Of a stretch of 64,000 bases of DNA, positions 25,891-59,610 are shown in pieces. The stretch lies in the NCBI RefSeq assembly GCF_053078305.1, contig NZ_CP166879.1, one strand, 5' to 3'. The notes beneath the pieces are model-generated. The model was given only the letters and a program-made list of their open reading frames with translations, did not search any database and was not told where the DNA came from. Numbering within the stretch: position 1 is the first letter of the stretch; the number at the start of each line of letters is the position of its first letter. The translations under genes were made by a program, and so were the position numbers.

Positions 25891-25900
25891 ATTCAATGCA

Positions 25901-39814: not shown

Positions 39815-39830
39815 AATCGGTTTTCCTTTC

Positions 39831-40990: not shown

Positions 40991-41079
40991 ACTGAAGATT
41001 TTCCTGATATGCAGAGATAAAAAATGGGAAAGTGGCGTGGTGAAAACACCAGGCCGTAGCAGAAGGCTATTCTGGAGGG

Positions 41080-41448: not shown

Positions 41449-41497
41449 GATAAAATCCTCACAGAAAATCGGTGAATGATAGTTTAACGATGACGGG

Positions 41498-42145: not shown

Positions 42146-42163
42146 CAGAATCCCCTTTCTGAC

Positions 42164-42385: not shown

Positions 42386-42453
42386 GATGGGATACCTCTG
42401 AAGACAGAAGATAAAAGTGAAAACAAGTGTGATGTGGTTGTGATGGTGACGGG

Positions 42454-42930: not shown

Positions 42931-42945
42931 TGTGCTTCTCTCCAT

Positions 42946-43452: not shown

Positions 43453-43516
43453 ATGAATGGAAGAAGTCGCGGGGCAGGGACGGACATGTCAGAACTGCGC
43501 TTTCAGGGAAAAGGCA

Positions 43517-44335
43517 TCAGCGCATACTCTCCAGCAGTGTTTCTGCCATCACCCACAACGCCCGGTTGAGCTTAATGTCGGTGTCGATGCTGTGAATGGC
43601 ACGGGTATGGATACGTTTCCCTCTGGCACTGCGACCGGAAATCCCGCCTTTCAGCATATTTTCCTGGATGGTCTGATAAGTACTCCACAGGTCCTTACCG
43701 TAATCCTCCCGGCGTCGTGGTGTCAGAATGTCGGCGGTGGTGACGGGCTGATGTTCGTCACCATAACGGTAAGTCAGCGCCGCCTGTGCCAGCGCCTGAC
43801 GTGCCGGTGGCGGTAAGAGCAGCGACTGCATGGCATCACGCTTTTCCTCAATCCGGTCAAAAACGCCCACCACTTCGTAAGCCCCTTCAATAACTTTCTC
43901 CACCACGTCTCCCCGGTGCGGAACACGCACCTCTCCCAGAGACTGACCGCAGACGCACCCGTTCTGACAAACGAATCTGAAGTAACCCGGCAGCATCTGG
44001 TAGCTGGAGGTACCGTCATGGGAATTGAGCAGGATGATTTCCGGGACATGCTGTCCGTTTATCTCTCCGGCCCGCCGCAGACGCAGCATGTGTTTTGTGT
44101 ATCCCCGGCGGCCCGGGTCACGTACGCGGGTCTGGCAGGCGAAGAATGGCTGAAAACCTTCCCGCTGCAGGCTTTCCAGTACGGTGATGGTGGGGATCCA
44201 GGTATAGTTCTCGCTTCTGGATGTGTGCTTATCTTCCCCGAATACGCTGGGGACGACTTGCATCAGTTCTTCGCGAGTTAAGGGGCGGTCACGGCGTATC
44301 TGGTTCGCATAACCAAAACGACTGGCTAATCGCAT
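43517..44335 (-). CDS. DUF932-family protein (YfjQ/YafZ-like)
   Basis: 272 aa; conserved island position and family-typical sequence (LLNSHDGTSSYQMLPGYFRFVCQNG). Confidence 0.75.
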   Translation of the reverse strand: MRLASRFGYANQIRRDRPLTREELMQVVPSVFGEDKHTSRSENYTWIPTITVLESLQREGFQPFFACQTRVRDPGRRGYTKHMLRLRRAGEINGQHVPEIILLNSHDGTSSYQMLPGYFRFVCQNGCVCGQSLGEVRVPHRGDVVEKVIEGAYEVVGVFDRIEEKRDAMQSLLLPPPARQALAQAALTYRYGDEHQPVTTADILTPRRREDYGKDLWSTYQTIQENMLKGGISGRSARGKRIHTRAIHSIDTDIKLNRALWVMAETLLESMR

Positions 44336-44746
44336 AATTTGCTCCTTATCGGTGGTTAAGATTTGCTGGTGTAATAAATGAAAAAGCCACGTCTCCCGGA
44401 GAAGACGCGGCCTGATGGGTGAAATGAATGACGTTTATTGTCTGAGAAGACCGTCACTGGCGAGCCGCGTATTAAGCACCTTTCCGGCATCGGGTTCAGA
44501 ATTCCGGCTGCGCCAGCGTCGCTGACCTTCCGCGTTGCGGATAACCCGACGGAAATGCATTCCCGGGTCATTCTGGATAAACACATTGCGGTAAGCGGTT
44601 ATGACAGCAACCGCCTGCCCGTATGAGAAAGATCCTTCAGCCAGGACATACTCTGTGTAACCCGGCATATCTGTTTTCTCCTGATAAATAAAAAGCCTCT
44701 GCCACGCGTTGTGACAGAGGCTGAAGCATGAAACTGACTTCAGGGA

Positions 44747-45202
44747 TCAGTTAACGTTTTTTCCGGAAACGGTAATCAGCAGTGGATGGTAGTCCTGGGG
44801 ATCGAAAACCGATAACGGCAGACTGACACGATGGCCGTTACTTTCTTCAGTTGCTTTAATGATTTCGGTTGTGGCGATATTTTCCACGCACTCCGTTTCC
44901 AGAAATGCGTCTGTGGTTCGCGTGGCATTACTGTCACCAAAAGCTTCCGTTTCCATTTTTCTGGTCACCAGCGTCTGACCATATTTGTCTTTGAGTTGCA
45001 GAGTGATGGTGAGGGGGCCAAATCCTTCACCGTTTCCGCCATTATCCAGCCGGAACTGGTAAGCACAAATATTTCCCGGGAGCCATATCGTATCTGTATT
45101 GCGTATACTGATGTAACGATGATCCTGTGCCCGGAGTGGGGCAGACCACGTTAACCCCAGAATGAAGGCGGTAATCATGCAGGTTTTGAACAGGTGAATC
45201 AT
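44747..45202 (-). CDS. small secreted/lipoprotein-like island protein
   Basis: 151 aa with N-terminal signal peptide MIHLFKTCMITAFILGLTWSAPLRA. Confidence 0.5.
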   Translation of the reverse strand: MIHLFKTCMITAFILGLTWSAPLRAQDHRYISIRNTDTIWLPGNICAYQFRLDNGGNGEGFGPLTITLQLKDKYGQTLVTRKMETEAFGDSNATRTTDAFLETECVENIATTEIIKATEESNGHRVSLPLSVFDPQDYHPLLITVSGKNVN

Positions 45203-45277
45203 GGTATTTACCTCTCTGAGTCATGACGATGACACTGACAAATCAGGTGATAAAACGTAAAAGGCGCAGAATAGCCG

Positions 45278-47800
45278 TTATGCCGGTAACTCCGGAGGTA
45301 ATGCTTCTTCCAGTCGGTTAACCATATTGCCGAGATGGGATGCATCATATTCCATGACGGGGCGTTGCCTGATGATACTGACCACCAGTGGTTTGATTAA
45401 CATATTGGTCGCGGCCCGTTGTTGTATACCGGCGGCGAAAATGATCTCCAGAGCATTCTGATCGATAACACGGGCCAGATTCTCGTTCAGATTTTCAATC
45501 TCATGTCCGGTCAGCAGGAAACTGCCGGCAAGCCATGTCACCTGCTCCTGAATCATTGCCAGAATTTTGACGCGATCTTCTTCAACCAGCGCTCCGGCAA
45601 TTTTTCCTGATACAGCGGAGGCAATCATTCCCCCCAGAACACCGCCAACCACACGCCCTGTCAGTGCACCAAATGGTCCCAGTGGACTGAACAGTATCCC
45701 GCCCGCCACTGACCCGACAGCTCCACCTGCAACACCGGAAGATGCCACGGCAAGATTCCTGATGAACTGCGTACCGGAGATCCGTCCCCGCAACATTTTG
45801 ATCATGTCAGGGCCGGTTGTGACAGCTACCAGTGCCAGAGATGTCACCAGCGTACCCTTCATCACTTTGTTCAGGGCACTGATATTTCCTGCACCGGTCC
45901 CCTTCTGAAGAGCCAGTCGGACAGTCGGGCTGGCAGTCGAAAAATCAATGTGCTTCAGCATACCCTGAACAACACTGAGCCGGTGGAGTTGCTGGGTTGT
46001 GACGTAGACAGCCAGTGTGCGGGTGAAGGTTTTTCCTGCCTGGACAGCAGCTGTCTGCAGGGCAGCATCGCGATCGCCGGTGCTGAGCCAGAAGACCGAT
46101 GCCGTCAGGGCAAAACTGATCCCTCCGGCCGCCAGACTGACAACCGAACCCTCGGCAATATCATAAGTGACCGATTCGATGGTCCCGAACCGGGTGATAT
46201 TACGGGCCTGAGTATAAGTCAGATGTCCCCGACGAATCAGCCGGGACGCTTCTGCGGGATCGGTTACACCGGGTACTTTACCTTCGCGGATCTTATTCCT
46301 CATGGTTTCAACAGCGCCGGCATACTGATCACGGGGGACTTCCAGTTGCATGGGGCCATTATTTCCCATGTAACGATACTGTCCGTTTTGTCCGTCGAAT
46401 GCCGCACCGACGCTACGGGCTGCAGTTGAACAATATTTCGTCTGGATTTCTGTTCCGCTGACCAGTCTGTCTGCTCCATTTCTGGCATTATTATCACCGA
46501 GGATCCGTGCGTTTTTCAGACGGACTCTGTCGACAATATGGTTTCCCCGTTCAGCGGCAAACCCATGTCCCTGCCCTCCGGAAGCAAACATTTTCTCATT
46601 TGTACTCCAGGTTTCCGGCAGTTTCATGAGAATCAGACCATTCGCCGTTGCATCGGAAATAAAACCGGTGTAAGAACGTTCATAAATGTCCTGACACAGT
46701 GTTTCTGTTTCGCGACAAAGAGAGGAGCAGTACCATTCCGGATCCGGCTTATGATTTTCCGGGGCATGATGTACTTCTGTCAGCCCGCAGGAGGCACAGA
46801 TACGAAGCTCATCCACGTGATGGAATGATAAAAAACGGCGACCTTCTGAAAAGGGATACCAGTCACCGCCGTCCAGGCAACGATCGAGAAAATCGTCATT
46901 CGCTTCCGGTGATAAATTCAGGCGGTTCCGGAAGAGCGTTTTCAGTTCATCAGGTGTGAATGACAGGTTCTCTTTCAACTGTTCGTTAAACCCTGCCATG
47001 TTTCTTTCATACCAGGCATTGTTCAGTAACCAGTTTCCGTCTGCCAGTTCAAATTCCCTCAGCTCTCCCCGGGAAATCCGTTGAGAAATGAGCGTCAGCC
47101 AGATGCGCTCCGTCAGTGAGTCAGGAAGGCTGTAATCGTTTTGCAAACTGGTCAGCCACGATTTACTGTTGAGCACCGGTTGTTCTTCCAGTGTCTGGCT
47201 GATGGCACAGGTCAGTTTTTTCAGCGCCTGGATCTGGCTGGCCGCCCATAGCAGCGTCACTAATGCAGCCAGCCAGTACAACAACCCGCCCCACCACATC
47301 AGTGACGGTGAAATATCGTACTGTAACGCGATCAATGGTGCGCATGCAGAACACGCCATAAGGAAAAAGGCAGTATAAAAACAGCAGTAATACCCGTTAA
47401 TTTCCTTGCTGATATCTTCTGGTGTGATCCCGTTCTGCTGAATGTTTTTGATCTGCAGGGGAACAGCCAGCAGACCACCGGCGAGAGCAGTGGTCAGAAT
47501 AAATTTCACAGAGTCAAAGGTGTGAGCCTCCAGCGCGATATGTTTACCATCAAGTCCCCACATGAAGCTGATGATCATTCCGGCAATCGTCAGAAATACG
47601 CCTGCCAGCCAGCGAATATGGAACAACCGGGTTATGCGTTCGGTGATATAGCCAGCCAGTAAGGCCGGGCCGAACAGACACAGCAATATGAGCCCTGCCA
47701 GCGCAGAAGCCGTGCTGATTAATGCTCTGAACAAAAGGCGAAGAATGGCAAATCCTGCGATCAGCAGGATCAGCGCGCCGACTATCTGTAACATAGTCAC
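45278..47800 (-). CDS. YeeR-like inner membrane protein (840 aa) with N-terminal TM bundle, central Cys4 zinc-ribbon-like motif and C-terminal Gly-zipper segment
   Basis: about 6 N-terminal hydrophobic helices; CASCGL...(18)...CSSLC; Gly-rich GVAGGAVGSVAGGILF...GGVLGGMIASAVSG; position immediately downstream of Ag43 as for yeeR. Confidence 0.55.
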   Translation of the reverse strand: MTMLQIVGALILLIAGFAILRLLFRALISTASALAGLILLCLFGPALLAGYITERITRLFHIRWLAGVFLTIAGMIISFMWGLDGKHIALEAHTFDSVKFILTTALAGGLLAVPLQIKNIQQNGITPEDISKEINGYYCCFYTAFFLMACSACAPLIALQYDISPSLMWWGGLLYWLAALVTLLWAASQIQALKKLTCAISQTLEEQPVLNSKSWLTSLQNDYSLPDSLTERIWLTLISQRISRGELREFELADGNWLLNNAWYERNMAGFNEQLKENLSFTPDELKTLFRNRLNLSPEANDDFLDRCLDGGDWYPFSEGRRFLSFHHVDELRICASCGLTEVHHAPENHKPDPEWYCSSLCRETETLCQDIYERSYTGFISDATANGLILMKLPETWSTNEKMFASGGQGHGFAAERGNHIVDRVRLKNARILGDNNARNGADRLVSGTEIQTKYCSTAARSVGAAFDGQNGQYRYMGNNGPMQLEVPRDQYAGAVETMRNKIREGKVPGVTDPAEASRLIRRGHLTYTQARNITRFGTIESVTYDIAEGSVVSLAAGGISFALTASVFWLSTGDRDAALQTAAVQAGKTFTRTLAVYVTTQQLHRLSVVQGMLKHIDFSTASPTVRLALQKGTGAGNISALNKVMKGTLVTSLALVAVTTGPDMIKMLRGRISGTQFIRNLAVASSGVAGGAVGSVAGGILFSPLGPFGALTGRVVGGVLGGMIASAVSGKIAGALVEEDRVKILAMIQEQVTWLAGSFLLTGHEIENLNENLARVIDQNALEIIFAAGIQQRAATNMLIKPLVVSIIRQRPVMEYDASHLGNMVNRLEEALPPELPA

Positions 47801-47914
47801 TCCGTGATGAATATCATGTTATTGTTAATGCCAGCGAATGTGGCGTTGAAGATCCGTTGCGCCGGTCCGGGTCCCGGTCATGATGACCGGGACCACAGAG
47901 AGGCGATGGTTCTG

Positions 47915-50900
47915 TCAGAAGGTCACATTCAGTGTGGCCTGACCGTTATACCCTTCAGCGCTGCTGCCGCTGACGCTGTGGGCATAACCGGCCTGAACGC
48001 CCAGGGTGATATTTTCCCGGACACGGGCTTCCAGTCCGGCCTGCAGGTCCAGTGACGTGCCATTCCGGGACGGTGAGAACGTCATGTTACTGCCGGCTGC
48101 AGCTGTACCCATGCTCATGTCCCCCCGGGAGCTGAAGGTGCGGATAACAGAAGGTTGTACCCACCAGTTCACAGGCAGTTCACTCACACCGTGTTTTGTA
48201 CTGTCGCGCAGGGTGTCACGGGATGAGGTGCCTTCACCAAAGGTCATATCGTTGTGGCTGCCCAGACGGAAACCGGCACGCACATGTTGTGCACTGCCAT
48301 ACCCGAACTTCACATAACCGGCGTTATCCTGGCCGTCATCCAGGGAGAGTCCCTGCCAGGTGTACTGCAGTTGCGGCTCCAGCATCAGATTGTCAGTGAT
48401 ACTGAAGGGCAGACCGGTTTCCAGCGAACCCAGCCAGCCCCACCCCCGGGCGCGGAAGTCGTTATTGTCCGTTGACGCTTTCATGCTGTGGCGGGTTCCC
48501 AGGGCCACAATGTCAGCCCACAGGCCGGAGGATGTATGTGTCAGATTCAGGTATCCGCCAAGGCTGCCGGCATCATCCCGGACCGTGCCGGCACGGGAGG
48601 CGTCATCATCCTTAACATCAACGGAAGAATGGCCTGCAGCACCATATATCCCTGCGGTCACAGACATACCGGCAACCTCTGTTCTCAGCAGGTCACCCTC
48701 CAGGCGGACGAAGCCATAGCTGCCGCTGCTTTCCGGCGTGGCCCCACGGGCAATACCGCCGTTGTTATCGTGACCGAGATGGCCGCCCTGAATGCTGAGA
48801 CGGACGCTGTTATTTTCACCGTTTACACCGGTCTGATGGCTGCGTGAGCCTGCCAGAATCCGGTCATAGTCCATTGCCTGTGTCAGCATGGAGGCATACA
48901 GGGGGACTTCTGCACGATAAGCATTTTCACTGCGCAGATACCAGCTCTCATCACTGTCCCGGTTGAGGGAGTAGTTAAAGGCACCGGCCTGCAGCCTGTT
49001 CCCCTGGACAAAGGCCCCTTCCTCCGTGGTGGCACCGTTAATGGCTTCCACCACCTGAATACCCTTACCGCTGGTCGCCAGCCCCGACGCACTGTTGCCA
49101 GCGTTCACCAGGTTCAGGATGGTTTTTCCGGTTGCCCTGCCACCGTCAATGACCAGTCTGTCAGCATTGTTCTGTGCCATATCCGGGCGTACACGCAGGC
49201 TGATGGTGCCATTCTGTCCGTTCAGGTTTTTCACTTTCAGGGTTGCCGGTACGAACTTCCCTGTGCGGGTGGAGGTGAAATGAATCTGTCCGGCATGGCT
49301 GAGGTCATCCACCACCGACTGCACCGTGGCGTTATCGGGGATATTCCAGGTGGCACCGGAGGCGAGAGTGACATTCGTGGGGTCAATGGCACCGTTCAGC
49401 ACAGTGCTGCCGGTCAGCTTCAGGGCTGTACCGCGCTGAGCAATGACATCCGTGGTGACGGTACTGTCGTTCAGCGTCAGCGTGCCTTCATTCAGGTTGA
49501 CGGCTTTCTGGGTGAGTGTGGTGTTGCTGACAGTGAGTGTGCCACTTCCTGATTTTTCCACGCTGCCGTTACCGGTGAGAGAGCCTCCCTGCAGGAGTGC
49601 ATCGCCTTCACGGATGGTCAGGGTATCGTTGTTCACCGTCTTCCCGGAAAGGGTAAGTATGGCGCCGTTATTCAGCGTGGTGGTGCCCGCCAGTGTGCCG
49701 CCCCTGGCGGTGAACAGTCCGCCATTTACCGTGGTATCCGTGGCCGTATCACCGGCGTTCAGCGTGAATGAACTGCCTTTTTCCAGCATCAGGGCATCCG
49801 CCTGACCGCCTCCGATACTGAATGCCTTTCCGTCGCTCCGTGTACCACTGACAGCGGCACCGGAATCGGCCAGCAGTACACCGCCATTCCCCATGGATAC
49901 GGTGGTGGCGGCACCACCGTTGCGGACATCCAGCGTTCCGCCATCATCCACACGGGTATTAGTGGCTGTGTGTCCGCTCAGCACATCCAGACGTCCGCCA
50001 TTTTCCAGTACGACATTATCAGCTTTACCCTCCACAACAGAGAATGCTCCCTGGCGGTTTATGCCGGTAACGGTTGCAGCCGTACTGGTAACCAGTGCGC
50101 CGCCCTGCTTCAGGGTGACATTCGTGGCTGTACCACCGGCGTTCACCTGCAGTTTGCCTTTCTGGTTAACGGTGGTGAAATCCGCCAGACCACCTTCCTT
50201 GACAATCTGCCAGCCGTCACTGTTTACAACCGTGTCAGAGGCTGTGCCTCCGTTGTGCACATACTGGTAACCGCCATTCAGTGTGGTATCCAGCGCATGC
50301 CCGTGTACCGTCTGGTCGCCGCCGGCATAAACCACAGTGGTATTTGCTGTTCCTTCAGCAGCCACAATCTGACGACCATTTTTATTGATAGTGGTACGTA
50401 CGGCATTTCCGCGAACAAACTGCCCGGTATCACCATTTTCTGCATCTGGTCCCCCTTCCGCGCCGGTATTCACAACCGTGTCGGTTGCCATTGCGCCGGA
50501 TTTGACGGCCTGCCAGCCCTTCTCATTAATGACGGTACCCGTTGCAATCCCGCCTTCATGTACCCACTGCTCACCGCCGTTCAGAGTGGTGTTCACTGCC
50601 TGCCCCTGAAGGCTCTGTCCGCCTCCGGCACTGATAACCGTGTCTGAAACACTTCCGCCGGGATTCACTCTCTGAAGACCACCACTGGTGACAGTCGTTT
50701 TGTTGGCTGTACCGCCATCCTGTACCCATTGACCGCCGGTATTGGCCTCATTGTCCGGCCCGTACTCCAGCCCGGTACTGATGGTCATTCCGTTGGTCAT
50801 ACCGAAGACAATCTGGTTGTCATGATTTGTCAGTGTTCCGCCGCTCACGGTTTCTCCCGCCTGTACAACCGTGTCAGCAGCCAGTGCCGGGACTGATGTG

Positions 50901-51034
50901 ACAGCAGCAAGAGACAGCGCAACCGCCACTCCGGCGCGTTTTCCCCGTGAGCGGGCCAGTTCGGAGGCCACCACCAGGGTGCCCGTAATGTGATTCCATA
51001 CCAGCCTGTAGCTGGTGTTCAGATGTCGTTTCAT
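47915..51034 (-). CDS. flu: Antigen 43 (Flu) self-associating autotransporter adhesin
   Basis: ORF 47915..51190; 1039 aa from MKRHLNTSYRLVWNHITGTLVVASELA extended signal peptide, passenger beta-helix repeats, C-terminal beta-barrel ending in aromatic residue. Confidence 0.9.
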   Translation of the reverse strand: MKRHLNTSYRLVWNHITGTLVVASELARSRGKRAGVAVALSLAAVTSVPALAADTVVQAGETVSGGTLTNHDNQIVFGMTNGMTISTGLEYGPDNEANTGGQWVQDGGTANKTTVTSGGLQRVNPGGSVSDTVISAGGGQSLQGQAVNTTLNGGEQWVHEGGIATGTVINEKGWQAVKSGAMATDTVVNTGAEGGPDAENGDTGQFVRGNAVRTTINKNGRQIVAAEGTANTTVVYAGGDQTVHGHALDTTLNGGYQYVHNGGTASDTVVNSDGWQIVKEGGLADFTTVNQKGKLQVNAGGTATNVTLKQGGALVTSTAATVTGINRQGAFSVVEGKADNVVLENGGRLDVLSGHTATNTRVDDGGTLDVRNGGAATTVSMGNGGVLLADSGAAVSGTRSDGKAFSIGGGQADALMLEKGSSFTLNAGDTATDTTVNGGLFTARGGTLAGTTTLNNGAILTLSGKTVNNDTLTIREGDALLQGGSLTGNGSVEKSGSGTLTVSNTTLTQKAVNLNEGTLTLNDSTVTTDVIAQRGTALKLTGSTVLNGAIDPTNVTLASGATWNIPDNATVQSVVDDLSHAGQIHFTSTRTGKFVPATLKVKNLNGQNGTISLRVRPDMAQNNADRLVIDGGRATGKTILNLVNAGNSASGLATSGKGIQVVEAINGATTEEGAFVQGNRLQAGAFNYSLNRDSDESWYLRSENAYRAEVPLYASMLTQAMDYDRILAGSRSHQTGVNGENNSVRLSIQGGHLGHDNNGGIARGATPESSGSYGFVRLEGDLLRTEVAGMSVTAGIYGAAGHSSVDVKDDDASRAGTVRDDAGSLGGYLNLTHTSSGLWADIVALGTRHSMKASTDNNDFRARGWGWLGSLETGLPFSITDNLMLEPQLQYTWQGLSLDDGQDNAGYVKFGYGSAQHVRAGFRLGSHNDMTFGEGTSSRDTLRDSTKHGVSELPVNWWVQPSVIRTFSSRGDMSMGTAAAGSNMTFSPSRNGTSLDLQAGLEARVRENITLGVQAGYAHSVSGSSAEGYNGQATLNVTF

Positions 51035-51214
51035 CAGCTTTTCCTTAGATTGAGGGTGAATAAAAAAGCCGGTACCCACAAACGTGGATACCGGCAGGTA
51101 AAGGGTTACAGTGCCGGAGGTCCGGCTGTGGGAGTTTCTGAATTGTGGTTCTGTTGTTCCCTGAATGTCTTTCTGTACGTATCTGTGCATGTTACTGACA
51201 AAGGTTATTATTAG

Positions 51215-51260
51215 CTTATCGATCGATATAAACGATCGATAAAATAGGTATCGATCGTTT
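51215..51260. promoter_or_regulatory. agn43 phase-variation switch: three Dam GATC sites within the OxyR operator
   Basis: GATC at 51221, 51234 and 51253 in the sequence tcgatcgatataaacgatcgataaaataggtatcgatcg, ~180-225 bp upstream of flu start. Confidence 0.75.
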
Positions 51261-51361
51261 TATTCTATTGTTTGGCTATTGCACGGACAAGAGAGACAGT
51301 AACGAAAACAGCGCTTTTGTGAGCAGACTCAGAGTCAGGGAGGGCATCAGTCACGACAGGT

Positions 51362-52234
51362 TCAGAAGAAAATCCAGTTCCATACCGCACGGGCAACAGA
51401 GACCACCGTGTTACGAACAGCGCGCAGGGCCGTACGGACAACAGAGGCAACACAGACGCTCTCCGCTGTGTCAAATATCCGGTCCACCGCACCGGTAAAC
51501 TGTTCACGGGCCTGAGACCGGACAGATTCCGTGCGCAGCTCGTCCTGCAGTCGGGTCATCAGGGGACTGGCGGCATGGTCGGGAAGCGCTGTCATGAGCG
51601 CACTGACCAGCGTATCCAGTTCCCAGCCGGTGCGGGCCGATACGGCCACAACCGGATGTACGGGCCGGAACAGACGGAATACCGCCTCCGTTTTTTCGCG
51701 AATATTCTGTGCCTGTGCAGGAGAAGGCTGAATACCGGCCATATCCCATTCATGGCAGGGCTCCGTTTTGTCGGCCTGCGTCACCACAAACAGCACCTGC
51801 TGATGTCCGCACTGCAGGATGTGTCGCCAGAAATACTCATCCACAGACAGGGCACGGTCATCGGCTTTAATCAGCCACAGTACCAGGTCAAGTTCAGGCA
51901 GAATGTCACGGTACAGGGCTTCATACTCAGCATCCCTGTCCCGGCTCTCGCCCACCCCGGGCAGGTCAGTGATAACCATGCTGTGACCATGGCCACTCAG
52001 ACGGAAGCGCTGCACTTCCCGGGTGCCAGCGTGAACATCACTGACCGGGGTGACCTCCCCCTGAAACAGTGCATTACAGAGTGAGGATTTACCGGCCCCG
52101 CTTTTACCCATAATGCCAATCACGGGTTCGTGGCTGGTGAGTTTGCGCAGATGTTCCAGGATGTGACGGGAAAGTGAATAAGGCAGGGAGGAGAGTGGTT
52201 TTTCAATTGCCTCAATGGCATCAGACGGATTCAT
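51362..52234 (-). CDS. yeeP: YeeP/YkfA-like island GTPase
   Basis: ORF 51362..52297; Walker A GKSGAGKSS, G3 DLPG, NKxD-like TQADK; start assigned to MNPSDAIE. Confidence 0.8.
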   Translation of the reverse strand: MNPSDAIEAIEKPLSSLPYSLSRHILEHLRKLTSHEPVIGIMGKSGAGKSSLCNALFQGEVTPVSDVHAGTREVQRFRLSGHGHSMVITDLPGVGESRDRDAEYEALYRDILPELDLVLWLIKADDRALSVDEYFWRHILQCGHQQVLFVVTQADKTEPCHEWDMAGIQPSPAQAQNIREKTEAVFRLFRPVHPVVAVSARTGWELDTLVSALMTALPDHAASPLMTRLQDELRTESVRSQAREQFTGAVDRIFDTAESVCVASVVRTALRAVRNTVVSVARAVWNWIFF

Positions 52235-52543
52235 ACATGTATTCCCGGTGAAAAAAAGACAAAACCCCGCGCACCGGAAAGGTGGCGGGGGACTCACGGA
52301 GATAATATATGTCTGAAATTATTTTGATTGTATGGTGTCATGAGATAGCTGAAACCGAGCTATGGATATGCAAATAATAACCTACAGTTTCCGGTTTGAG
52401 GATCGATGAAATCGTTGATTAATGTTAATATACCGCCAATTTTTCAGCGTTCTGATTCTTTCAGTGAATCAACGTATTGGGCTTCCCTGATAGCTGAACG
52501 CTTTAACTTACAATGCTCAGAATTGATAAGAAAAAAGGAATAT

Positions 52544-54667
52544 ATGTCCAGGCTGACTGATTTAATAGCTAAAGCGAAGGCCAAAGACCCACAGTTGGGC
52601 GCTGACCTGGATCGAGAAATCAAGATCCTATCATCACGACTTCCCTTTGGTCTTAATTTCGAACGACATAGCCCTGAAGTTGTCGAGTTGCCATTGCGGC
52701 CTATTCGAAAGGGAGACAAGGTTCGCGTTCTGCCGGAGCGTGGCTCCCCTAAGAAAGGCGATCAGCGGCTATGGCAGGTGAAAGCCATCAACAAGGCGAA
52801 AAAAAACGCTGATATCGAATTGCTGGATACAGTTGTTGTCGAGACTCAGACTGTAGCGCTGAACGATCTTGTCGTTATAGCTGAATTTCGTGACACCATC
52901 TGGCCAGGTCTGGTCAGTACGGGAAAAGTACAGCGCGGTGGTGATAAGCCTTTTCACTCGGTCATTAATGGCGAAAACTATCATGTGCTGAAAGCATTGA
53001 CCTACACGCATAGAGGCAAGGTGGATGCCATTTATATCGATCCTCCGTATAACTCGGGAGCTAAAGACTGGAAATACAATAACGATTACGTTGAGAAGGA
53101 CGATTTATATCGCCACAGTAAATGGTTGGCCTTTATGGAACGCCGCTTGTTGGTAGCTAAAGAGTTACTAAATCCTGCCGACTCAGTTCTCATCATCGCT
53201 ATTGATGAGAAAGAATATTTACGACTTGGGCTATTACTCGAACAAGTGTTCCCAGAGGCCAGTATTGAGATGGTAACGTCTGTGGTAAATCCCCGTGGTC
53301 GTCATCGCCCTGGAAGGTTTGCCCGGTCGGACGAATATGTCTTTTTTGTTCTGTTTGGAAAAGCAACAGTTGGACAAGAGTTAGATCCAGACTTTGCCGG
53401 AGGCAGCCAAGTCCCATGGAGGACCCTGAGACGAAGTGACGCTGCGTCGGCACGAGGTAAGCCAAAAGGCGGTACGGCTCAATTTTATCCGATCTACGTA
53501 AACAGCAATGGAGAAATTGAAGAAATAGGTACACCACTACCGCATGGAATTCCACGTAATACAGTCCAAGAGCGTGAAAATTGTGTTGCAGTATTTCCAA
53601 TACGCGACTCAGGACTTGAAATGAACTGGGGATTAACCTCTTCAGCTCTTAAGGCAATCCACGCTAAAGGCTATGTACGCGTTGGTCGCAGCACGCCTAA
53701 TAAGCCACAAAAATGGGAAATATCATATCTGACATCTGGCAAAATAGATGATATAGAGAGCGGGCGTGCAACTATTGTTGGGCATAATTCTGATGGAAGT
53801 GTTAAAGCGGAATACATTGCGGATAAGTTGAAAACGCCAACCTCAACGTGGATGAGAATCTCTCACAATGCAGAAACAGGTGGAACAAATCTGCTGAAAG
53901 CTCTGTTGCCTGATCGCCGATTTCCTTTCCCAAAATCACTGTATGCAGTTGAAGATGCACTCCGTTTTTTTATTTCAGCAAAAAAAAATGCTGTAGTAGT
54001 AGATTTCTTCAGTGGCTCAGGAACAACCGCCCATGCAGTCATGCGTCTGAACAAACAGGATGGTGGTCGCCGCCAGTGCATCTCCATCACGAACAATGAA
54101 GTCGCTGCCAGCGAACAAAAACAGTTGCGTGAACAGGGGTTACGCCCCGGAGATCCCGAATGGGAAAAATGGGGGATCTGTGATTACATCACAAAGCCGC
54201 GTGTACAGGCAGCTATAACAGGCAAGACACCTGAAGGAGAACCGATTGATGGCGACTATAAGTTTATCGACGAGTTCCCAATGTCTAAAGGCTTTGAGGA
54301 AAACGCTGAATTCTTTACCCTGACTTACGAAGCTGAAAAATCGGTTAGCCATAACCTTGCCTATGCGCGCATTGCGCCGTTACTGTGGTTACGTGCGGGT
54401 GCTCGTGGCAAATGTATTGACAGACTGCCTGCTGAAGGATGGGCGGTGGCTGATACTTATGGCCTGCTATCGGCTGTGGATCAGGCCACGCCTTTCATTG
54501 AAGCCATTAGCCATGCCAGTGACGTACGGGTGGCCTTTATCGTCACTGACGATGACCGCCACTTTCAAGCTGTCACGAGGCGTCTGCCAAAAGGTGTTGA
54601 ACCGGTACGTTTGTACGAATCGTATCTGACCAATTTCAGCTTTACCAATGGGGAATGGACAGAATGA
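52544..54667 (+). CDS. mod: Type III restriction-modification Mod subunit (beta-class N6-adenine DNA methyltransferase)
   Basis: ORF 52406..54667; AGGA RBS before ATG at 52544; motif IV DPPYN precedes motif I FFSGSGTT (beta order); flanking blocks resemble EcoP15I-type Mod as recalled from memory. Confidence 0.8.
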   Translation: MSRLTDLIAKAKAKDPQLGADLDREIKILSSRLPFGLNFERHSPEVVELPLRPIRKGDKVRVLPERGSPKKGDQRLWQVKAINKAKKNADIELLDTVVVETQTVALNDLVVIAEFRDTIWPGLVSTGKVQRGGDKPFHSVINGENYHVLKALTYTHRGKVDAIYIDPPYNSGAKDWKYNNDYVEKDDLYRHSKWLAFMERRLLVAKELLNPADSVLIIAIDEKEYLRLGLLLEQVFPEASIEMVTSVVNPRGRHRPGRFARSDEYVFFVLFGKATVGQELDPDFAGGSQVPWRTLRRSDAASARGKPKGGTAQFYPIYVNSNGEIEEIGTPLPHGIPRNTVQERENCVAVFPIRDSGLEMNWGLTSSALKAIHAKGYVRVGRSTPNKPQKWEISYLTSGKIDDIESGRATIVGHNSDGSVKAEYIADKLKTPTSTWMRISHNAETGGTNLLKALLPDRRFPFPKSLYAVEDALRFFISAKKNAVVVDFFSGSGTTAHAVMRLNKQDGGRRQCISITNNEVAASEQKQLREQGLRPGDPEWEKWGICDYITKPRVQAAITGKTPEGEPIDGDYKFIDEFPMSKGFEENAEFFTLTYEAEKSVSHNLAYARIAPLLWLRAGARGKCIDRLPAEGWAVADTYGLLSAVDQATPFIEAISHASDVRVAFIVTDDDRHFQAVTRRLPKGVEPVRLYESYLTNFSFTNGEWTE

Positions 54668-57237
54668 AATTTACTCTCAAAGGTTATCAGCGCGATGCTG
54701 TACATGATGCTCTGGCAAATCTCAGGAAGGCTCGCCGTTACTGGCATAACGAGAGCGACAAAAGCGCCTTCTCTTTAACTGCTGTAACCGGTGCAGGTAA
54801 GACCGTCATGGCTGCTGCTGTATTTGAAGCATTATTTCATGGCGACGATGAATTTAATTTCGATGCAGATCCCGGTGCGGTAGTGATCTGGTTTAGTGAC
54901 GACCCTGCACTGAACGAGCAAACCCGCTTTCGCTTGATGGAAGCGAGTGACCGTATCAACTACAACGATATGGTGGTAGTTGAACATCCCTTCAGTCGGC
55001 GTAAGTTCCAGGCCGGAAAAATCTATTTTCTTAACACGCAGAAGTTTGGCAAGAATAGTCTGTTAGTACGCGGATTCGATGATAAAGGCGGGCTTTTCGA
55101 GGCAACCCCTGATGCACAGGCTTATACACTGTGGGATACCATCCAGAATACCATCGAAGACCCAGATCTGACTCTCTATCTAGTACTGGACGAAGCGCAC
55201 AGGGGGATGGGGTCGTCAACGCCTTCCGGTGAAGTTGCTAAGAGTACTATTGTGCAACGTCTAATCAATGGTTCGGCTGGAGTGAAAGGTATTCCAGTAG
55301 TGTGGGGTATTTCTGCCACAGTTGAACGTTTCGACAATGCCATTGCCAATGCCGGTCATCATGTCAAACTGCCGAACGTGGTGGTTGACTCAGCTAAAGT
55401 GCAGGAATCGGGACTTATCAAGGACGATATCATTCTGGGTGTGCCTGATGAAGCTGGTGACTTCGATACAGTGTGGGTACGCCGTGCTGCCGACAAACTC
55501 AGGGAAGCGAGCGATGCCTGGGCTGAGTACGCAAGGCAGCAGGAAACCGTACACGAAGTAGTGCCTCTGATGGTATTCCAGGTTCCCAATATGCCAGATC
55601 CGAACGAGGTCGGACACTGGCTGGATACGTTATTCTCCCGTTATCCTGAATTGCCCATTGACAGTGTTGCTCATGTCTTCGGTGAACACACCACACAACG
55701 TTTCGGCCGACATCAGGTGCCTTATATTGAACCGCAGCGGGTGCAGGAATCAACTTGGGTGCGCGTATTGATTGCTAAAGATGCTATCAGCACTGGCTGG
55801 GATTGCCCACGTGCCGAAGTAATGGTTTCCTTCCGTGCAGCCAGCGACAGGACGCATATTACGCAATTGTTGGGGCGTATGGTACGTACTCCATTGGCGA
55901 GACGTATTCCGGGTAATGAGCGTTTAAACTCTGTAGAATGCCTATTGCCCAAGTTTAATACCAATACCGTGAGAGATGTCGTCAATACCTTGTTTAAGGG
56001 CGATGATACCTCTCCTCCAAGTGGACGCATCCTGGTTAACCCTGTGGAGATGAAACCTAACCCGGCTGCTTCAGCTGAAGTATGGGAAGCATTTGAAGCG
56101 CTACCTTCGCAAACCCGCCCACAGAAAGGAGCCAGACCCGCCAGACGTCTGACCGCGCTGGCACAAGAACTGGTTGATGACGGAATTCTTGATGGGGCAG
56201 TCAGGAAAGCCCATGCTGCGTTGCACGCGGTCTTGGACAAATACCAGACAGAAAATGCCGAGAAAATCAAAAACAAACGCAATGCAGTGCTCGTCGTAGA
56301 TGGTAAGGCCTTGGTTGCCAGCCTAAAGAACAAAGCTATGACCTTCAACGAATTCTGGGAAGAGGCGGATGTAGCGGTGATTGATGACGCATACCGGCGT
56401 GCAGCCCGAATCTTCAGCCCAGATGTTTCACGTACCTATGTCGAATATCTGGCCGATAAGGTTGCGGATAGAGAAGATGATGCTGAGGAATATCTGGAAG
56501 CAATCATGGAAGCTCGTGTGACCGTTGCTGGTTTGGGGCTAGTGATGGAGGTGCAGGATTACTTCGATGCTGAAGCCGATAAACTGACGAAGGCGTGGTT
56601 GGTCGTGTACACACCACAGATCAAGTCTTTGAAAGATGAGCGTAAAGAGGCTTACCGTCAAATCGTCGAAATGAGTACCAAACCGCAGGATGTGGATCTG
56701 GTCAGGCCAGAGAACAAGTTTGAAATGACCAGTGTGCGTGAAGGTGAGAAGGAAACTAACCTTCCAGTCTGGAAACACCATTTGTTGTGTGACAAAAGTG
56801 GGAACTATCCGGCTCAGTTTAACCATTGGGAAACCAAGGTTTTTGAGATCGAAACCAAACGTGAAGGATTTGCTTTCTGGTATCGTAATCCACAGTACAC
56901 AGGGCAATCGTCACTGGGAATCGCCTATGTTGAAGCCGAACAGTACAAAATTGTTCGTCCCGATTTCCTGTTCTTTGCCGAACAGGATGGTAAAATGGTT
57001 GTGGATCTTGTAGATCCTCATGGCCTACATTTGGCTGATGCTTTGCCCAAACTGAAAGGAATTGCTTTATATGCCGAACAGCATTCTGATGCTTACAGGC
57101 GAATTGAATCTGTCGCCGAAGTAAAGGGGAAATTACGAGTGTTAGATTTGAAACGGCAGGATGTACAGGATGCTGTTGCTAACGCTGAAAATGCAGAAAC
57201 GTTATTTAGTAGCGGACTTGCTAATGACTACCTGTAA
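54655..57237 (+). CDS. res: Type III restriction enzyme Res subunit (SF2 helicase plus C-terminal nuclease-like region)
   Basis: 860 aa; Walker A TGAGKT, DEAH box LVLDEAH, motif VI QLLGRMVRT; overlaps mod stop by 13 nt; C-terminal region has candidate D...ExK nuclease residues (VFEIETK). Confidence 0.7.
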   Translation: MDRMKFTLKGYQRDAVHDALANLRKARRYWHNESDKSAFSLTAVTGAGKTVMAAAVFEALFHGDDEFNFDADPGAVVIWFSDDPALNEQTRFRLMEASDRINYNDMVVVEHPFSRRKFQAGKIYFLNTQKFGKNSLLVRGFDDKGGLFEATPDAQAYTLWDTIQNTIEDPDLTLYLVLDEAHRGMGSSTPSGEVAKSTIVQRLINGSAGVKGIPVVWGISATVERFDNAIANAGHHVKLPNVVVDSAKVQESGLIKDDIILGVPDEAGDFDTVWVRRAADKLREASDAWAEYARQQETVHEVVPLMVFQVPNMPDPNEVGHWLDTLFSRYPELPIDSVAHVFGEHTTQRFGRHQVPYIEPQRVQESTWVRVLIAKDAISTGWDCPRAEVMVSFRAASDRTHITQLLGRMVRTPLARRIPGNERLNSVECLLPKFNTNTVRDVVNTLFKGDDTSPPSGRILVNPVEMKPNPAASAEVWEAFEALPSQTRPQKGARPARRLTALAQELVDDGILDGAVRKAHAALHAVLDKYQTENAEKIKNKRNAVLVVDGKALVASLKNKAMTFNEFWEEADVAVIDDAYRRAARIFSPDVSRTYVEYLADKVADREDDAEEYLEAIMEARVTVAGLGLVMEVQDYFDAEADKLTKAWLVVYTPQIKSLKDERKEAYRQIVEMSTKPQDVDLVRPENKFEMTSVREGEKETNLPVWKHHLLCDKSGNYPAQFNHWETKVFEIETKREGFAFWYRNPQYTGQSSLGIAYVEAEQYKIVRPDFLFFAEQDGKMVVDLVDPHGLHLADALPKLKGIALYAEQHSDAYRRIESVAEVKGKLRVLDLKRQDVQDAVANAENAETLFSSGLANDYL

Positions 57238-57549
57238 TCTATAGAAATTGCGTAACGAAACTGCATTTCAAATTGGTTGAGACAATCTAACTCTGAGTAT
57301 TGGAGCTTCTCTGTAAGAAGGTCCAATACTTACAAGTCTATTTGGTGACCACAGCCACTATAACTTAAAGCAGTTTAGCAGCTTGTTAACTAAAGAGTTT
57401 TATTGTTTCTTCAACCTGGAATTGCGGAATCCCCTCTTTCGTACAATTAATGATAGGATGTGTCAATATAGTAACTTTTGCAACTTCACCCGAAGTTTTT
57501 TGTAAAATATACTGACCTATTATATGTCACAAAATATGTGATGTGAGGA

Positions 57550-58344
57550 ATGATGAACAGTAACCTGACCAAAATATGTTATCAAGGTGAGACCGGAGAA
57601 AGTGATTTAAGAACGTTGATGCTTGGTGATATTTTATATATCTCATTGCGAGACGTTTTAGTGACACTGAATAAAGAAAATAGAGAAATAAATGCTGATT
57701 ACACAGTAAAATCAATGGCGGGAATAATCAGAGCACAATTACAGGTTCTTGATCCTGACGAGTATATCACGACTGATGCTGAACACAGTGTTTTTGAAGG
57801 TCAAAAAGAGATCTTCGTCACCCAGCCTGGTTTGTATCGAGTCATGTCAAGTGACCGAAGTGCTGCTGGTAAGCGCTTTCAAAAATGGCTATTTCATGAA
57901 GTCATACCATCATTGACTAAACATGGAGTATACCCACCTCCGCCAGAGGCTAAAGGATCAGTTTTAGCTCAAATGGCTGAAATACTTGCACAAAATTCGC
58001 GAGCACTTGCTGACGCAATCCATAAACACGAAAAATTGGCAGAAGATGTCTCACAGGTTAAAGGTAAGGTTGCCGACGTTGAAAGCCGCTTGGAACTGTT
58101 AGAATCAGGTCCTTCCACTATAACTGAAGATATGAAATCCCTTGATGAACGACTTGTTTTCTTGGATATGAGAATGGAGGAAAAGCATTTCACCGAGACA
58201 TTAGCCTGGTGCGAAAATATTTCAGTTCAAAAAAGCAGGAAAGTGATTCGCAAGAATTGTAGAGAGAATTCACTCTTTACTATACAGACTATCGACGAGG
58301 CGATAGCCATCATGACTGAAAGTGGAAAAATAACACAAAATTAA
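57550..58344 (+). CDS. BRO-N domain protein (prophage antirepressor-like) with C-terminal coiled coil
   Basis: 264 aa; BRO-N hallmark QPGLYRVMSSDRSAAGKRFQKWLFHEVIPSLTKHG; heptad-rich C-terminus. Confidence 0.7.
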   Translation: MMNSNLTKICYQGETGESDLRTLMLGDILYISLRDVLVTLNKENREINADYTVKSMAGIIRAQLQVLDPDEYITTDAEHSVFEGQKEIFVTQPGLYRVMSSDRSAAGKRFQKWLFHEVIPSLTKHGVYPPPPEAKGSVLAQMAEILAQNSRALADAIHKHEKLAEDVSQVKGKVADVESRLELLESGPSTITEDMKSLDERLVFLDMRMEEKHFTETLAWCENISVQKSRKVIRKNCRENSLFTIQTIDEAIAIMTESGKITQN

Positions 58345-58685
58345 AGAGTTAGGGGCATGTTATCTGCTGGTTATATTATTGAACGCTGACGTGACACAGG
58401 CTTTTCCGCAAAGAGAAGGCCTATCCAGAGGGTTACTTACGGCTACAACCGAAGTTACGCTCCCTTTTCGTAAATTTTAGTGTCAAGTTTGGTCAGATGC
58501 GTATTCCGAACAAACTGCGATCGATTCAGGTGCCATTTTGCAACAACTACTGAGTTTGCCCAACCAACTCAGATAAAATGTCAGCAACGTTATTAAAGGA
58601 TATTTACCAGGGCAAAGAAATCGTCGTAAAATTATTCAACAAATAATTTTACTGTACTTGCTCAATTTGCAGAAGGAAAATCAGG

Positions 58686-59003
58686 ATGACCAAACCATCA
58701 ACTATAGCCGGAACAGCAGGCGCTTTGGCAACTGCCGGTACTGCAGCCTCAACAGCATCAACCGTTGCAGGTGCATCAGCTGCAACAATTATGTCAGCGA
58801 CAGCAGGAACAACAGGAGCAGCTCTGGCTTCCGTTGCAGGCGCATCCGGTACAGCAGGCGCAGCAGCAATTTCATCAGGTATGGCAGCGATTGGTTCCAC
58901 TGTTGGTGGTGGGATGGCTGCCGGTGCGGTAATTACTGCAGCAGCGCCTGTTGCGATTAGTGCAGCCGTCATTTATGGGCTGGTTAAAATATTCAAAGAT
59001 TAA
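58686..59003 (+). CDS. small Ala/Gly/Thr-rich protein (105 aa) with hydrophobic C-terminal segment; function unknown
   Basis: AAGGA RBS 8 nt upstream of ATG; strong GCx codon periodicity; sequence ...GGGMAAGAVITAAAPVAISAAVIYGLVKIFKD. Confidence 0.45.
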   Translation: MTKPSTIAGTAGALATAGTAASTASTVAGASAATIMSATAGTTGAALASVAGASGTAGAAAISSGMAAIGSTVGGGMAAGAVITAAAPVAISAAVIYGLVKIFKD

Positions 59004-59610
59004 TTGCAGGGGCTTCGTACAGAAACCAGTCGCACCTCCTGACGGTTCCGAAAGCTCGACTGGCAGAGTTGCTGCCTCTTGAGGGATTTACCTTCTCCGG
59101 GTGAGTGATATCTGCCGTCAGGTGTTCGTGCAGCGGGCCATAACCTGCAGTCGGGAGTTGAACGCCTGACGACAGGAAATCAGCCAGGCCAGTCACCACG
59201 CAGGCTGACAACAGGTCAGAACCTGAATCAGCCGGCAGCCATTCCCGTGGTCAGTACTTCGCGGCCTGACACGATCACCAGACTCAGTCCTTCAGAACCA
59301 GACTCCAGTACCTGCCTGGCGGTCGCCCCGGCGCAACAGAATAAATCAACCATCGTCAGACGGCGATCGTTTATATGCCAACGACGTGCCCGAAAAATGC
59401 GTCAATATGAGTTCCCCGGATGCTTACGTTGGTTGCAAAAAATGTAATTTACAATGTGTGTGGATAATTTTAATAGTTTGATTAATATCGTGCGTTAGTT
59501 AAATCAATAACGGGCTAACTACTGTAAAGAGGTTAGTCCGTGTTTTTATTGTAAGCATGACTATTTTTTATTTATTTGTATTAGTCGCGACTTGCTCTGA
59601 CGTATGACTT

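What the first reader, a model, noticed from the sequence alone, without database searches (positions are those of the whole stretch)
51215..51260. Intact Dam/OxyR phase-variation switch upstream of Ag43
Three GATC sites with the characteristic spacing lie in the flu leader, so the adhesin is predicted to be phase-variable. This is a known mechanism, noted here because it confirms that the flu copy is regulated rather than a remnant.
Basis: established knowledge. Interest (0 to 1): 0.3.

Follow-up and report, generated by a model that had tools for sequence, protein, structure and literature searches.

The report
Known Ag43 Dam/OxyR on-off switch
The three GATC sites are real and form the well-known Dam/OxyR methylation switch in front of an intact E. 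coli antigen 43 (flu) adhesin gene, so this is an ordinary, already understood feature.

Summary
Confirmed and ordinary. GATC occurs at 51221-51224, 51234-51237 and 51253-51256. The gene lies on the minus strand, so these are GATC-III, -II and -I. Their spacing (19 and 13 nt) and their distance to the flu ATG (222/203/190 nt) are identical to E. coli K-12, with no indels.

The -35 TTGTCC and -10 TAGAAT hexamers and the 17-nt spacer length are unchanged. The region corresponding to the published OxyR footprint (51215-51272) differs from K-12 at three positions. Two of them fall on unspecified positions of the OxyR consensus.

In 13 diverse flu/cah alleles the three GATCs and their spacing never vary, even where neighbouring sequence is only about 45% identical. 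flu is intact: 1039 aa, 95% identical to K-12 Ag43, and above the NCBIfam Ag43 cut-off. dam and oxyR are each present in 5425 of 5426 complete E. coli genomes.

- The first GATC sits at the transcription start rather than deep in the leader.
- The 222-nt leader is the IsrC/IS102 RNA and carries its own terminator.
- The switch probably drives a flu-yeeR-irmA operon.

Actual switching is inferred, not shown. By-product: these are the only GATCs in a 4.5-kb GATC-free stretch.

The parts
51285..51290 (-). -35 hexamer TTGTCC of the flu (agn43) promoter
   Evidence: Promoter scan, the only sigma-70-like hit in 50900-51500. Identical to K-12.
51262..51267 (-). -10 hexamer TAGAAT, 17-nt spacer after the -35
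   Evidence: The hexamer is identical in 11 of 13 alleles, and the AAAAC following it is invariant. The spacer carries 3 substitutions relative to K-12 (at -14, -17, -18) but keeps its length.
51253..51256 (-). GATC-I. Its G (51256) corresponds to the transcription start (+1)
   Evidence: The K-12 isrC annotation starts at the homologous G, 2071317. The Rfam IS102 match starts at 51258. The TSS assignment is recalled from Wallecha et al. 2002 and was not read here.
51234..51237 (-). GATC-II (+20 to +23)
   Evidence: Invariant in 13 alleles.
51221..51224 (-). GATC-III (+33 to +36)
   Evidence: Invariant in 13 alleles.
51215..51272 (-). OxyR operator, the equivalent of the published -16..+42 DNase I footprint. 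It contains the 37-nt OxyR motif 51222-51258 and a 12-bp perfect inverted repeat around GATC-I and GATC-II
   Evidence: Coordinates computed. The motif matches the consensus ATAGnTnnnAnCTAT-n7-ATAGnTnnnAnCTAT at 14 of 20 specified positions, the same as K-12. The inverted repeat 51230-51260 was reported by the terminator scan. 55 of 58 positions are identical to K-12. The footprint limits come from my recollection of Wallecha 2002.
51035..51256 (-). 222-nt flu leader (5' UTR). Its first ~200 nt are the IsrC / IS102 RNA
   Evidence: Rfam RF00124 IS102 matches 51055-51258(-) at 253 bits against a gathering score of 46. K-12 isrC is annotated at the homologous place. The fold has z = -4.8. PMC5389530 states that flu expression is controlled by antitermination of IsrC.
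51058..51095 (-). Intrinsic terminator in the leader: a 12-bp stem (51095-51068) followed by TTTTTTATTC, just upstream of the RBS
   Evidence: 25 of 28 stem-loop positions and all 10 T-run positions are invariant in 13 alleles.
47915..51034 (-). flu / agn43 coding sequence, 1039 aa, intact
   Evidence: 95% identity to K-12 Ag43 over the full length with no gaps. NCBIfam auto_Ag43 scores 1889.8 bits against a cut-off of 1200. Pfam finds ESPR, AIDA, AC_1 and Autotransporter domains. The ORF listing shows a mechanical in-frame extension to an ATG at 51190; the true start is set by homology and the RBS.
45278..47800 (-). yeeR-like gene (838-840 aa), the second gene of the probable operon
   Evidence: ORF. 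RefSeq annotates the homologue as a hypothetical protein in STEC17-190. No Pfam or NCBIfam hit. The agn43-yeeR-irmA operon is described in PMC4807369.
44747..45202 (-). irmA (interleukin-receptor mimic protein A), the third gene of the probable operon
   Evidence: Pfam IrmA PF18673 scores 131 bits. Annotated as an IrmA family protein in STEC17-190. Co-transcription with agn43 and OxyR repression were shown in UPEC (PMC4807369).
44684..44722 (-). First terminator-like hairpin on the minus strand after the flu stop, 25 nt after the irmA stop; probable end of the transcription unit
   Evidence: there is no minus-strand terminator-like site between 47915 and 44747.
51362..52234 (-). YeeP-like GTPase gene immediately upstream. 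This is conserved context, not part of the switch
   Evidence: It is the neighbour of the switch in every allele fetched and in Citrobacter.

Best explanation
This is the canonical agn43 (flu) epigenetic phase-variation switch, located on the minus strand. A sigma-70 promoter (-35 at 51290-51285, -10 at 51267-51262) starts transcription at the G of GATC-I (51256). An OxyR tetramer binds the operator that spans the start site (about 51272-51215) and contains all three GATCs, but only when they are unmethylated. Bound OxyR blocks transcription and shields the sites from Dam, giving the OFF state. If Dam methylates the sites after replication before OxyR rebinds, OxyR cannot bind and the promoter is active, giving the ON state. 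Each state is inherited and flips at low frequency. In ON cells the transcript must also read through the intrinsic terminator of the 222-nt IsrC/IS102 leader. It then probably continues through flu, the yeeR-like gene and irmA to a terminator at about 44700. Shown here: all the sequence elements, their register, their conservation, and the intactness of the genes. Inferred: OxyR binding, differential methylation, switching, and co-transcription in this strain.
For: - The three GATCs are at the stated coordinates.
- The alignment to K-12 has no indels and the GATC-to-ATG distances are identical, 222/203/190 nt.
- The promoter hexamers and spacer length are unchanged.
- The OxyR consensus match equals that of K-12 (14 of 20), and the two operator substitutions (+5, +9) fall on unspecified consensus positions.
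- The GATCs, the 19/13 spacing, the 5 nt (AAAAC) between the -10 hexamer and GATC-I, and the leader terminator T-run are invariant across 13 alleles; the -10 hexamer is identical in 11 of them. This includes cah-type alleles in which the rest of the leader is about 45% identical.
- The K-12 isrC annotation begins at the G of GATC-I, and Rfam IS102 scores 253 bits.
- flu is intact and passes the Ag43 equivalog cut-off.
- dam and oxyR are each found in 5425 of 5426 complete E. coli genomes.
- The mechanism is described in PMC3764049, PMC2909390, PMC4872104 and PMC13337833.
- The operon and its OxyR control are described in PMC4807369. The window has the matching gene order and no internal terminator.
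Against: - No methylation or expression data exist for this strain.
- dam and oxyR are not in the window.
- There are five substitutions relative to K-12 between -18 and +9, and three of them (-14, -17, -18) are unique to this allele within the 13-allele sample. An exact 101-bp match does exist in other genomes: 12 records at 99% identity or more.
- The consensus score for OxyR is not discriminating on its own. Another 14/20 match lies at 31368-31404, and many 13/20 matches exist.
- The TSS and footprint limits are recalled from Wallecha et al. 2002, which could not be read here.
Confidence: 0.9

Rival explanations
1. The switch is present but functionally altered or locked. The substitutions at -14, -17 and -18 in the promoter spacer, and at +5 and +9 in the operator, would change promoter strength or OxyR affinity enough to bias this copy strongly ON or OFF. 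Alternatively, this strain could carry a defective dam or oxyR.
For: There are five differences from K-12 within 27 nt of the start site. The spacer variant GCCAAACAAT is unique among the 13 alleles aligned, and only 12 of 5426 genomes match the 101-bp region at 99% or more. The +5 A-to-G change makes the GATC-I/GATC-II inverted repeat perfect, 12/12 against 11/12 in K-12, which could raise OxyR affinity.
Against: The hexamers, spacer length, all three GATCs and all specified OxyR consensus positions are unchanged. G at +5 is the majority state among alleles, and C at +9 occurs in three other alleles with intact agn43. dam and oxyR are almost never missing in E. coli.
Confidence: 0.07
2. The GATC triplet is a chance cluster, or a sequence relic with no regulatory role in this copy.
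For: Random placement of 154 sites yields a triple this tight somewhere in 64 kb in about 34% of trials.
Against: The triplet sits exactly at the homologous position of a characterised switch. It is invariant in 13 alleles despite heavy flanking divergence. It is the only GATC in 4.5 kb where 13-15 are expected. The gene downstream is intact.
Confidence: 0.01
3. The GATC cluster acts mainly through a protein other than OxyR, for example SeqA binding to hemimethylated sites, or a methyltransferase other than Dam such as the adjacent type III-like Mod enzyme.
For: SeqA mutants alter Ag43 switching bias (reviewed in PMC13337833). A 753-aa N6_N4_Mtase gene lies 1.1 kb upstream, at 52406-54667.
Against: [quoted passage not shown] The Mod gene is absent from K-12 and from most flu loci, which nevertheless keep the identical switch. 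Its target sequence is unknown.
Confidence: 0.02

Closest known systems
E. coli K-12 agn43 (flu) Dam/OxyR phase-variation switch (Henderson & Owen 1999; Haagmans & van der Woude 2000; Waldron 2002; Wallecha 2002)
   Same: Same locus type and same architecture. The -35/-10 hexamers, 17-nt spacer, three GATCs at +1/+20/+33, the 222-nt leader, the terminator and the RBS all align without indels at 98% identity. The upstream neighbour is the same YeeP-like GTPase gene.
   Different: There are five substitutions (-18, -17, -14, +5, +9). The Ag43 protein is 95% identical. K-12 has a truncated yeeP and yeeR and lacks irmA, whereas this island has full-length versions of all three. The chromosomal location differs: an island next to paoD rather than CP4-44.
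IsrC / IS102 RNA (Rfam RF00124), the flu leader
   Same: Full-length match (model positions 1-206) at 253 bits, with the same terminator hairpin.
   Different: No meaningful difference. It is the same element, read as a leader that terminates prematurely (PMC5389530).
agn43-yeeR-irmA operon of uropathogenic E. coli (Moriel et al. 2016, PMC4807369)
   Same: Same gene order and orientation, an IrmA Pfam match, and no internal terminator.
   Different: Co-transcription and OxyR control were shown in EC958 and CFT073, not in this strain. The closest relatives here are STEC and bovine isolates.
Salmonella gtr (P22) and opvAB Dam/OxyR switches
   Same: Dam and OxyR compete at GATC-containing OxyR half-sites and produce heritable ON/OFF states (PMC2909390; PMC4856963).
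   Different: Those systems have four GATCs in pairs and alternative OxyR sites, and OxyR also acts as an activator. At agn43 there is a single repressor site with three GATCs, and a dam mutant is locked OFF.
pap Dam/Lrp switch
   Same: An epigenetic switch based on GATC methylation and protection by a DNA-binding protein.
   Different: It uses Lrp and PapI, with two GATCs 102 bp apart in two mutually exclusive binding-site sets.

Membership tests
agn43-type Dam/OxyR phase-variation switch | Three GATC sites within about 36 bp, spaced 19 and 13 nt apart, at the promoter/leader junction of an Ag43-family gene | tested here: met
   Sites at 51253-56, 51234-37 and 51221-24. The spacing and the distance to the ATG are identical to K-12 and to 12 other alleles.
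agn43-type Dam/OxyR phase-variation switch | A single OxyR operator overlapping the GATCs and the transcription start | tested here: met
   Met at sequence level only. 55 of 58 positions are identical to the K-12 region equivalent to -16..+42. The consensus match is 14/20, the same as K-12, and both operator substitutions fall on N positions. The consensus score alone is not specific. Binding was not tested.
agn43-type Dam/OxyR phase-variation switch | Sigma-70 promoter directing a start at GATC-I | tested here: met
   TTGTCC, 17 nt, TAGAAT, with hexamers identical to K-12. K-12 isrC starts at the homologous G. The TSS in this strain was not mapped.
agn43-type Dam/OxyR phase-variation switch | Host encodes Dam and OxyR | not testable with these tools
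   Neither gene is in the window. Indirect support: each is present in 5425 of 5426 complete E. coli genomes, and the window is E. coli chromosome with fdeC, ecp and pao core genes.
agn43-type Dam/OxyR phase-variation switch | Methylated (ON) and unmethylated (OFF) states of the GATCs, with heritable reversible switching | not testable with these tools
   Needs m6A sequencing, an MboI/DpnI assay, or a reporter or aggregation assay.
Ag43/Cah family autotransporter adhesin (NCBIfam NF033177) | A full-length protein above the equivalog cut-off with ESPR signal peptide, AIDA repeats, autochaperone and beta-barrel | tested here: met
   1889.8 bits against a cut-off of 1200. Pfam finds ESPR, AIDA x4, AC_1 and Autotransporter. 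1039 aa, with no gaps against K-12.
IS102 / IsrC RNA (Rfam RF00124) | A covariance-model score above the gathering threshold over the full model | tested here: met
   253 bits against 46, model positions 1-206 of 206, at 51055-51258(-).
agn43-yeeR-irmA operon | Three co-oriented genes with no terminator between them, co-transcribed from the agn43 promoter | tested here: inconclusive
   Gene order, the IrmA domain and the absence of minus-strand terminator-like sites until 25 nt after irmA are met. Co-transcription itself is not testable here. It is shown only in UPEC.

The most novel reading that the evidence does not exclude
The switch's three GATCs may be deliberately isolated. The flu coding sequence has no GATC at all in five alleles of 76-94% DNA identity (6-10 expected each), and the upstream GTPase gene has none in four of those five loci (one site in FDAARGOS_536). 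This leaves the operator as the only Dam/SeqA target in about 4.5 kb. If this desert is selected, for example to stop processive Dam or SeqA filaments from reaching the operator and biasing the OxyR/Dam race, it would be an unrecognised cis requirement of the switch. A related possibility: the GTPase-promoter-operator cassette is portable and drives unrelated small secreted or membrane proteins in Citrobacter. Those would be unrecognised phase-variable genes.
Probability: 0.15. Interest if true: 0.4.

Novelty: already known. Interest (0 to 1): 0.1.

Why it matters
For annotation, this island's adhesin, and probably the immune-modulating IrmA protein encoded downstream, should be expected to be expressed in only a fraction of cells. 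That affects aggregation, biofilm and antigen-expression assays on this strain (the 'did I pick the right colony' problem, PMC3764049). It adds no new biology. The mechanism has been characterised since 1999-2002, and this copy differs from the reference by only a few substitutions at positions not known to matter.

Tried and rejected
- I tried to read the primary papers: Wallecha 2002 (PMC135096; a first look-up, used the mistyped id PMC135095), Kaminska 2010 (PMC2838033) and Wallecha 2014 (PMC4135670). None is held. The TSS at the G of GATC-I and the -16..+42 footprint therefore rest on my recollection. They are corroborated by the K-12 isrC start and by the 5'-RACE distance of 228 bp in EC958. 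That distance equals the GATC-I-to-ATG distance in the FDAARGOS_536-type alleles. I did not check which allele EC958 carries.
- A naive clustering statistic gave P of about 0.34 per window. I rejected it as support and replaced it with homology, conservation and the local GATC-free background.
- Scanning the window with the Toledano OxyR consensus is not discriminating: a 14/20 match also lies at 31368-31404, and there are many 13/20 matches.
- A scan of 100,044 species-representative genomes with a degenerate three-GATC operator pattern returned only four loci and no E. coli record. It therefore says little about taxonomic distribution.
- The 154-aa Citrobacter protein downstream of the operator has no Pfam family and only four database relatives, all unnamed. 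It is not IrmA.
- The + strand 'terminator' at 51230-51260 is simply the operator's dyad symmetry.
- The 1091-aa ORF starting at 51190 is a mechanical in-frame extension into the leader.

Full report
OBSERVATION. An exact search finds GATC at 51221-51224, 51234-51237 and 51253-51256, inside the reported 51215-51260. It is the only triple within 40 bp in the window. The sequence there, read on the minus strand, is AATAGAATAAAACGATCGATACCTATTTTATCGATCGTTTATATCGATCGATAAGC.

ANATOMY. The gene is on the minus strand.
- The flu ATG is at 51034 and the stop codon ends at 47915. This gives 1039 aa, 95% identical to K-12 Ag43 with no gaps.
- The protein scores 1889.8 bits against the NCBIfam Ag43 equivalog (cut-off 1200). 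It has ESPR, AIDA, autochaperone and beta-barrel domains.
- The only sigma-70-like promoter in 50900-51500 is TTGTCC (51290-51285), a 17-nt spacer, then TAGAAT (51267-51262).
- Taking the G of the first GATC (51256) as +1, the GATCs lie at +1, +20 and +33. The region equivalent to the published OxyR footprint (-16..+42) is 51272-51215, and the 5' UTR is 222 nt.
- The +1 and footprint limits are from my recollection of Wallecha et al. 2002, which is not held in the library. They are corroborated by two results. The K-12 isrC annotation begins exactly at the homologous G. A 5'-RACE start lies 228 bp upstream of agn43 in EC958 (PMC4807369), which is the GATC-I-to-ATG distance in alleles with a 6-nt longer leader.
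- The leader is the Rfam IS102/IsrC RNA (253 bits against a gathering score of 46, 51055-51258). It ends in a strong hairpin (51095-51068) plus a T-run just before the RBS. A held paper describes flu expression as controlled by antitermination of IsrC (PMC5389530).

COMPARISON.
- Against K-12 MG1655 the 400-nt regulatory region aligns at 98% identity without indels. The three G-to-ATG distances (222/203/190) are identical.
- Five substitutions lie near the switch. Three are in the promoter spacer (-18, -17, -14). Two are in the operator (+5 A-to-G, +9 T-to-C).
- Both operator changes fall on unspecified positions of the OxyR consensus ATAGnTnnnAnCTAT-n7-ATAGnTnnnAnCTAT. Both alleles match 14 of 20 specified positions. 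The +5 change makes the GATC-I/GATC-II inverted repeat perfect.
- I aligned 13 alleles sampled across the identity range of 9659 matches in 4507 of 5426 complete E. coli genomes. The three GATCs, the 19/13 spacing, the five bases before +1 and the terminator T-run are invariant, and the -10 hexamer is identical in 11 of the 13. In the cah/H10407-type alleles, the promoter-upstream region and the middle of the leader fall to about 45% identity. That pattern is what purifying selection on the switch would produce.

CHANCE. Clustering alone is weak: random placement of 154 sites gives such a triple in about 34% of 64-kb windows. The local background changes this. The three sites are the only GATCs between 47855 and 52400, where 13-15 are expected.

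TRANS FACTORS. dam and oxyR are not in the window, but each is present in 5425 of 5426 complete E. coli genomes. The left 37 kb of the window is E. coli core chromosome (fdeC, ecp, rclA, pao).

WHAT THE SWITCH CONTROLS. Downstream of flu, on the same strand, lie an 840-aa yeeR-like ORF (47800-45278) and irmA (45202-44747; Pfam IrmA 131 bits). No minus-strand terminator-like site occurs until 44722-44694, 25 nt after irmA. Moriel et al. 2016 showed in UPEC that agn43-yeeR-irmA is one OxyR-repressed transcript. The switch here therefore probably gates a 6.5-kb three-gene unit.

MECHANISM. The mechanism is known from the literature.
- Unmethylated GATCs allow OxyR to bind across the start site. 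OxyR then represses transcription and blocks Dam, giving the OFF state.
- Methylated GATCs exclude OxyR, giving the ON state.
- Replication creates a hemimethylated window in which Dam and OxyR compete, so each state is heritable but reversible at about 1e-3 per generation.
- What I show here is that every cis element is present, in register and conserved, and that the genes are intact. OxyR binding, methylation states and switching in this strain are inferred.

'NOT A REMNANT'. The closest genome (STEC17-190, 99.8% identical over 25 kb) has this very flu copy split by an IS66 element, at about window position 50829-50852.

BY-PRODUCTS.
(a) The flu CDS contains no GATC in the window, K-12, O157 cah, FDAARGOS_536 and L2_E1649 alleles. 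Synonymous-codon shuffles expect 6.3-9.6 sites, and at most 1 of 1000 shuffles reaches zero. The upstream GTPase gene has none in four of these five loci and a single site in FDAARGOS_536. The cbtA/radC/antirestriction module at 39227-44194 has 0 against about 21 expected. GATC-free stretches in mobile elements are a known general pattern (PMC4659465). The consequence here is that the operator is an isolated Dam target.
(b) A pattern scan of species-representative genomes found the same operator, with the same 19/13 spacing and -10 hexamer, in C. braakii and C. amalonaticus. There it sits behind a YeeP-like GTPase gene but in front of an uncharacterised 154-aa signal-peptide protein instead of flu. 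In C. werkmanii it sits in front of a small membrane protein.
(c) Differences between the window and STEC17-190 cluster around the switch: 6 of the 13 differences in 50829-64000 fall in 51248-51518. This suggests recombination among flu paralogues.

VERDICT. This is a textbook, already-known element, and its interest is low.

Noticed in passing
window 47855-52400 (flu CDS 47915-51034, GTPase gene 51362-52234); also L001, L019, L020, L021: Apart from the three switch sites there is no GATC in 4.5 kb (13-15 expected). The flu/cah coding sequence has zero GATC in five alleles of 76-94% DNA identity; synonymous-codon shuffles expect 6.3-9.6, and at most 1 of 1000 reaches zero. The upstream GTPase gene has zero in four of those five loci and one site in FDAARGOS_536. 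This might insulate the switch from Dam processivity or SeqA, or might simply reflect the known GATC depletion of mobile elements (PMC4659465).
   Followed up: partly
window 39227-44194: A 4,968-bp stretch covering the DUF4942 / cbtA-cbeA / radC / antirestriction / DUF932 module has no GATC at all (about 21 expected). The adjacent yeeR-irmA segment, 44195-47854, has 26 (about 20 expected), which suggests a mosaic origin. The whole window is GATC-poor: 154 against 251 expected.
   Followed up: partly
L016 5108-5145(-) (Citrobacter braakii ATCC 51113); L018 941-978(+) (C. amalonaticus); L015 7175-7212(-) (C. werkmanii): The same three-GATC operator (19/13 spacing; preceded by the TAGAAT -10 hexamer in C. 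braakii and C. amalonaticus, with different flanks in C. werkmanii) occurs without flu. In C. braakii and C. amalonaticus it lies between a YeeP-like GTPase gene and an uncharacterised 154-aa signal-peptide protein. In C. werkmanii it lies in front of a small membrane protein. These are candidate unrecognised Dam/OxyR phase-variable genes.
   Followed up: partly
window ~50829-50852, compared with L002 14852-17369: In the closest genome (STEC17-190, 99.8% identical) the same flu copy is interrupted near its 5' end by an IS66-family element (tnpA/B/C). The window copy is uninterrupted.
   Followed up: yes
window 51248-51518: Differences from STEC17-190 are concentrated at the switch, the promoter and the GTPase 3' end: 6 of the 13 differences in 50829-64000. 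Other clusters lie in the flu passenger region (49841-50282), the yeeR-like gene (46664-46831) and the island edge (36901-37348). This points to patchy recombination, possibly between the several flu paralogues per genome (median 2, up to 7 places).
   Followed up: partly
window 44747-47800: Full-length yeeR-like (838-840 aa, no family hit) and irmA (interleukin-receptor mimic) genes follow flu on the same strand with no terminator between them. They match the OxyR-repressed agn43-yeeR-irmA operon of UPEC, although the closest relatives of this window are STEC and bovine isolates.
   Followed up: partly
window 52406-57237 (+): Directly upstream of the GTPase gene and divergent from it lie a 753-aa N6_N4 DNA methyltransferase and an overlapping 860-aa ResIII/DEAD-box helicase, a type III-like restriction-modification or defence pair. 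The target sequence is unknown, and I did not examine whether it methylates anything in the switch.
   Followed up: no
window 59611-64000 (-): A cdiA gene (contact-dependent inhibition toxin, tRNA-nuclease type in the homologous annotation) runs off the right end of the window. It is followed by an 'immunity 63 family' gene at 59611-60021. A BRO-N domain gene lies at 57550-58344.
   Followed up: no
window 36809-38873: Island boundary: a LysR-family gene fragment next to paoD, then a tyrosine recombinase gene (37518/37554-38873, +). The flu-bearing island is therefore inserted beside the pao operon rather than at the K-12 CP4-44 site.
   Followed up: no
window 25697-25895 (-): Rfam IS009 (RF02111) match at 183.6 bits against a gathering score of 117, in the core-genome part of the window.
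   Followed up: no
L017 (JAIJJM010000733.1, labelled a Collinsella sp. MAG, 1560 bp): This contig carries a cah-type E. coli flu promoter, switch and leader nearly identical to the O157/H10407 alleles. It is most likely a mis-binned Enterobacteriaceae fragment in an Actinobacteria MAG.
   Followed up: no
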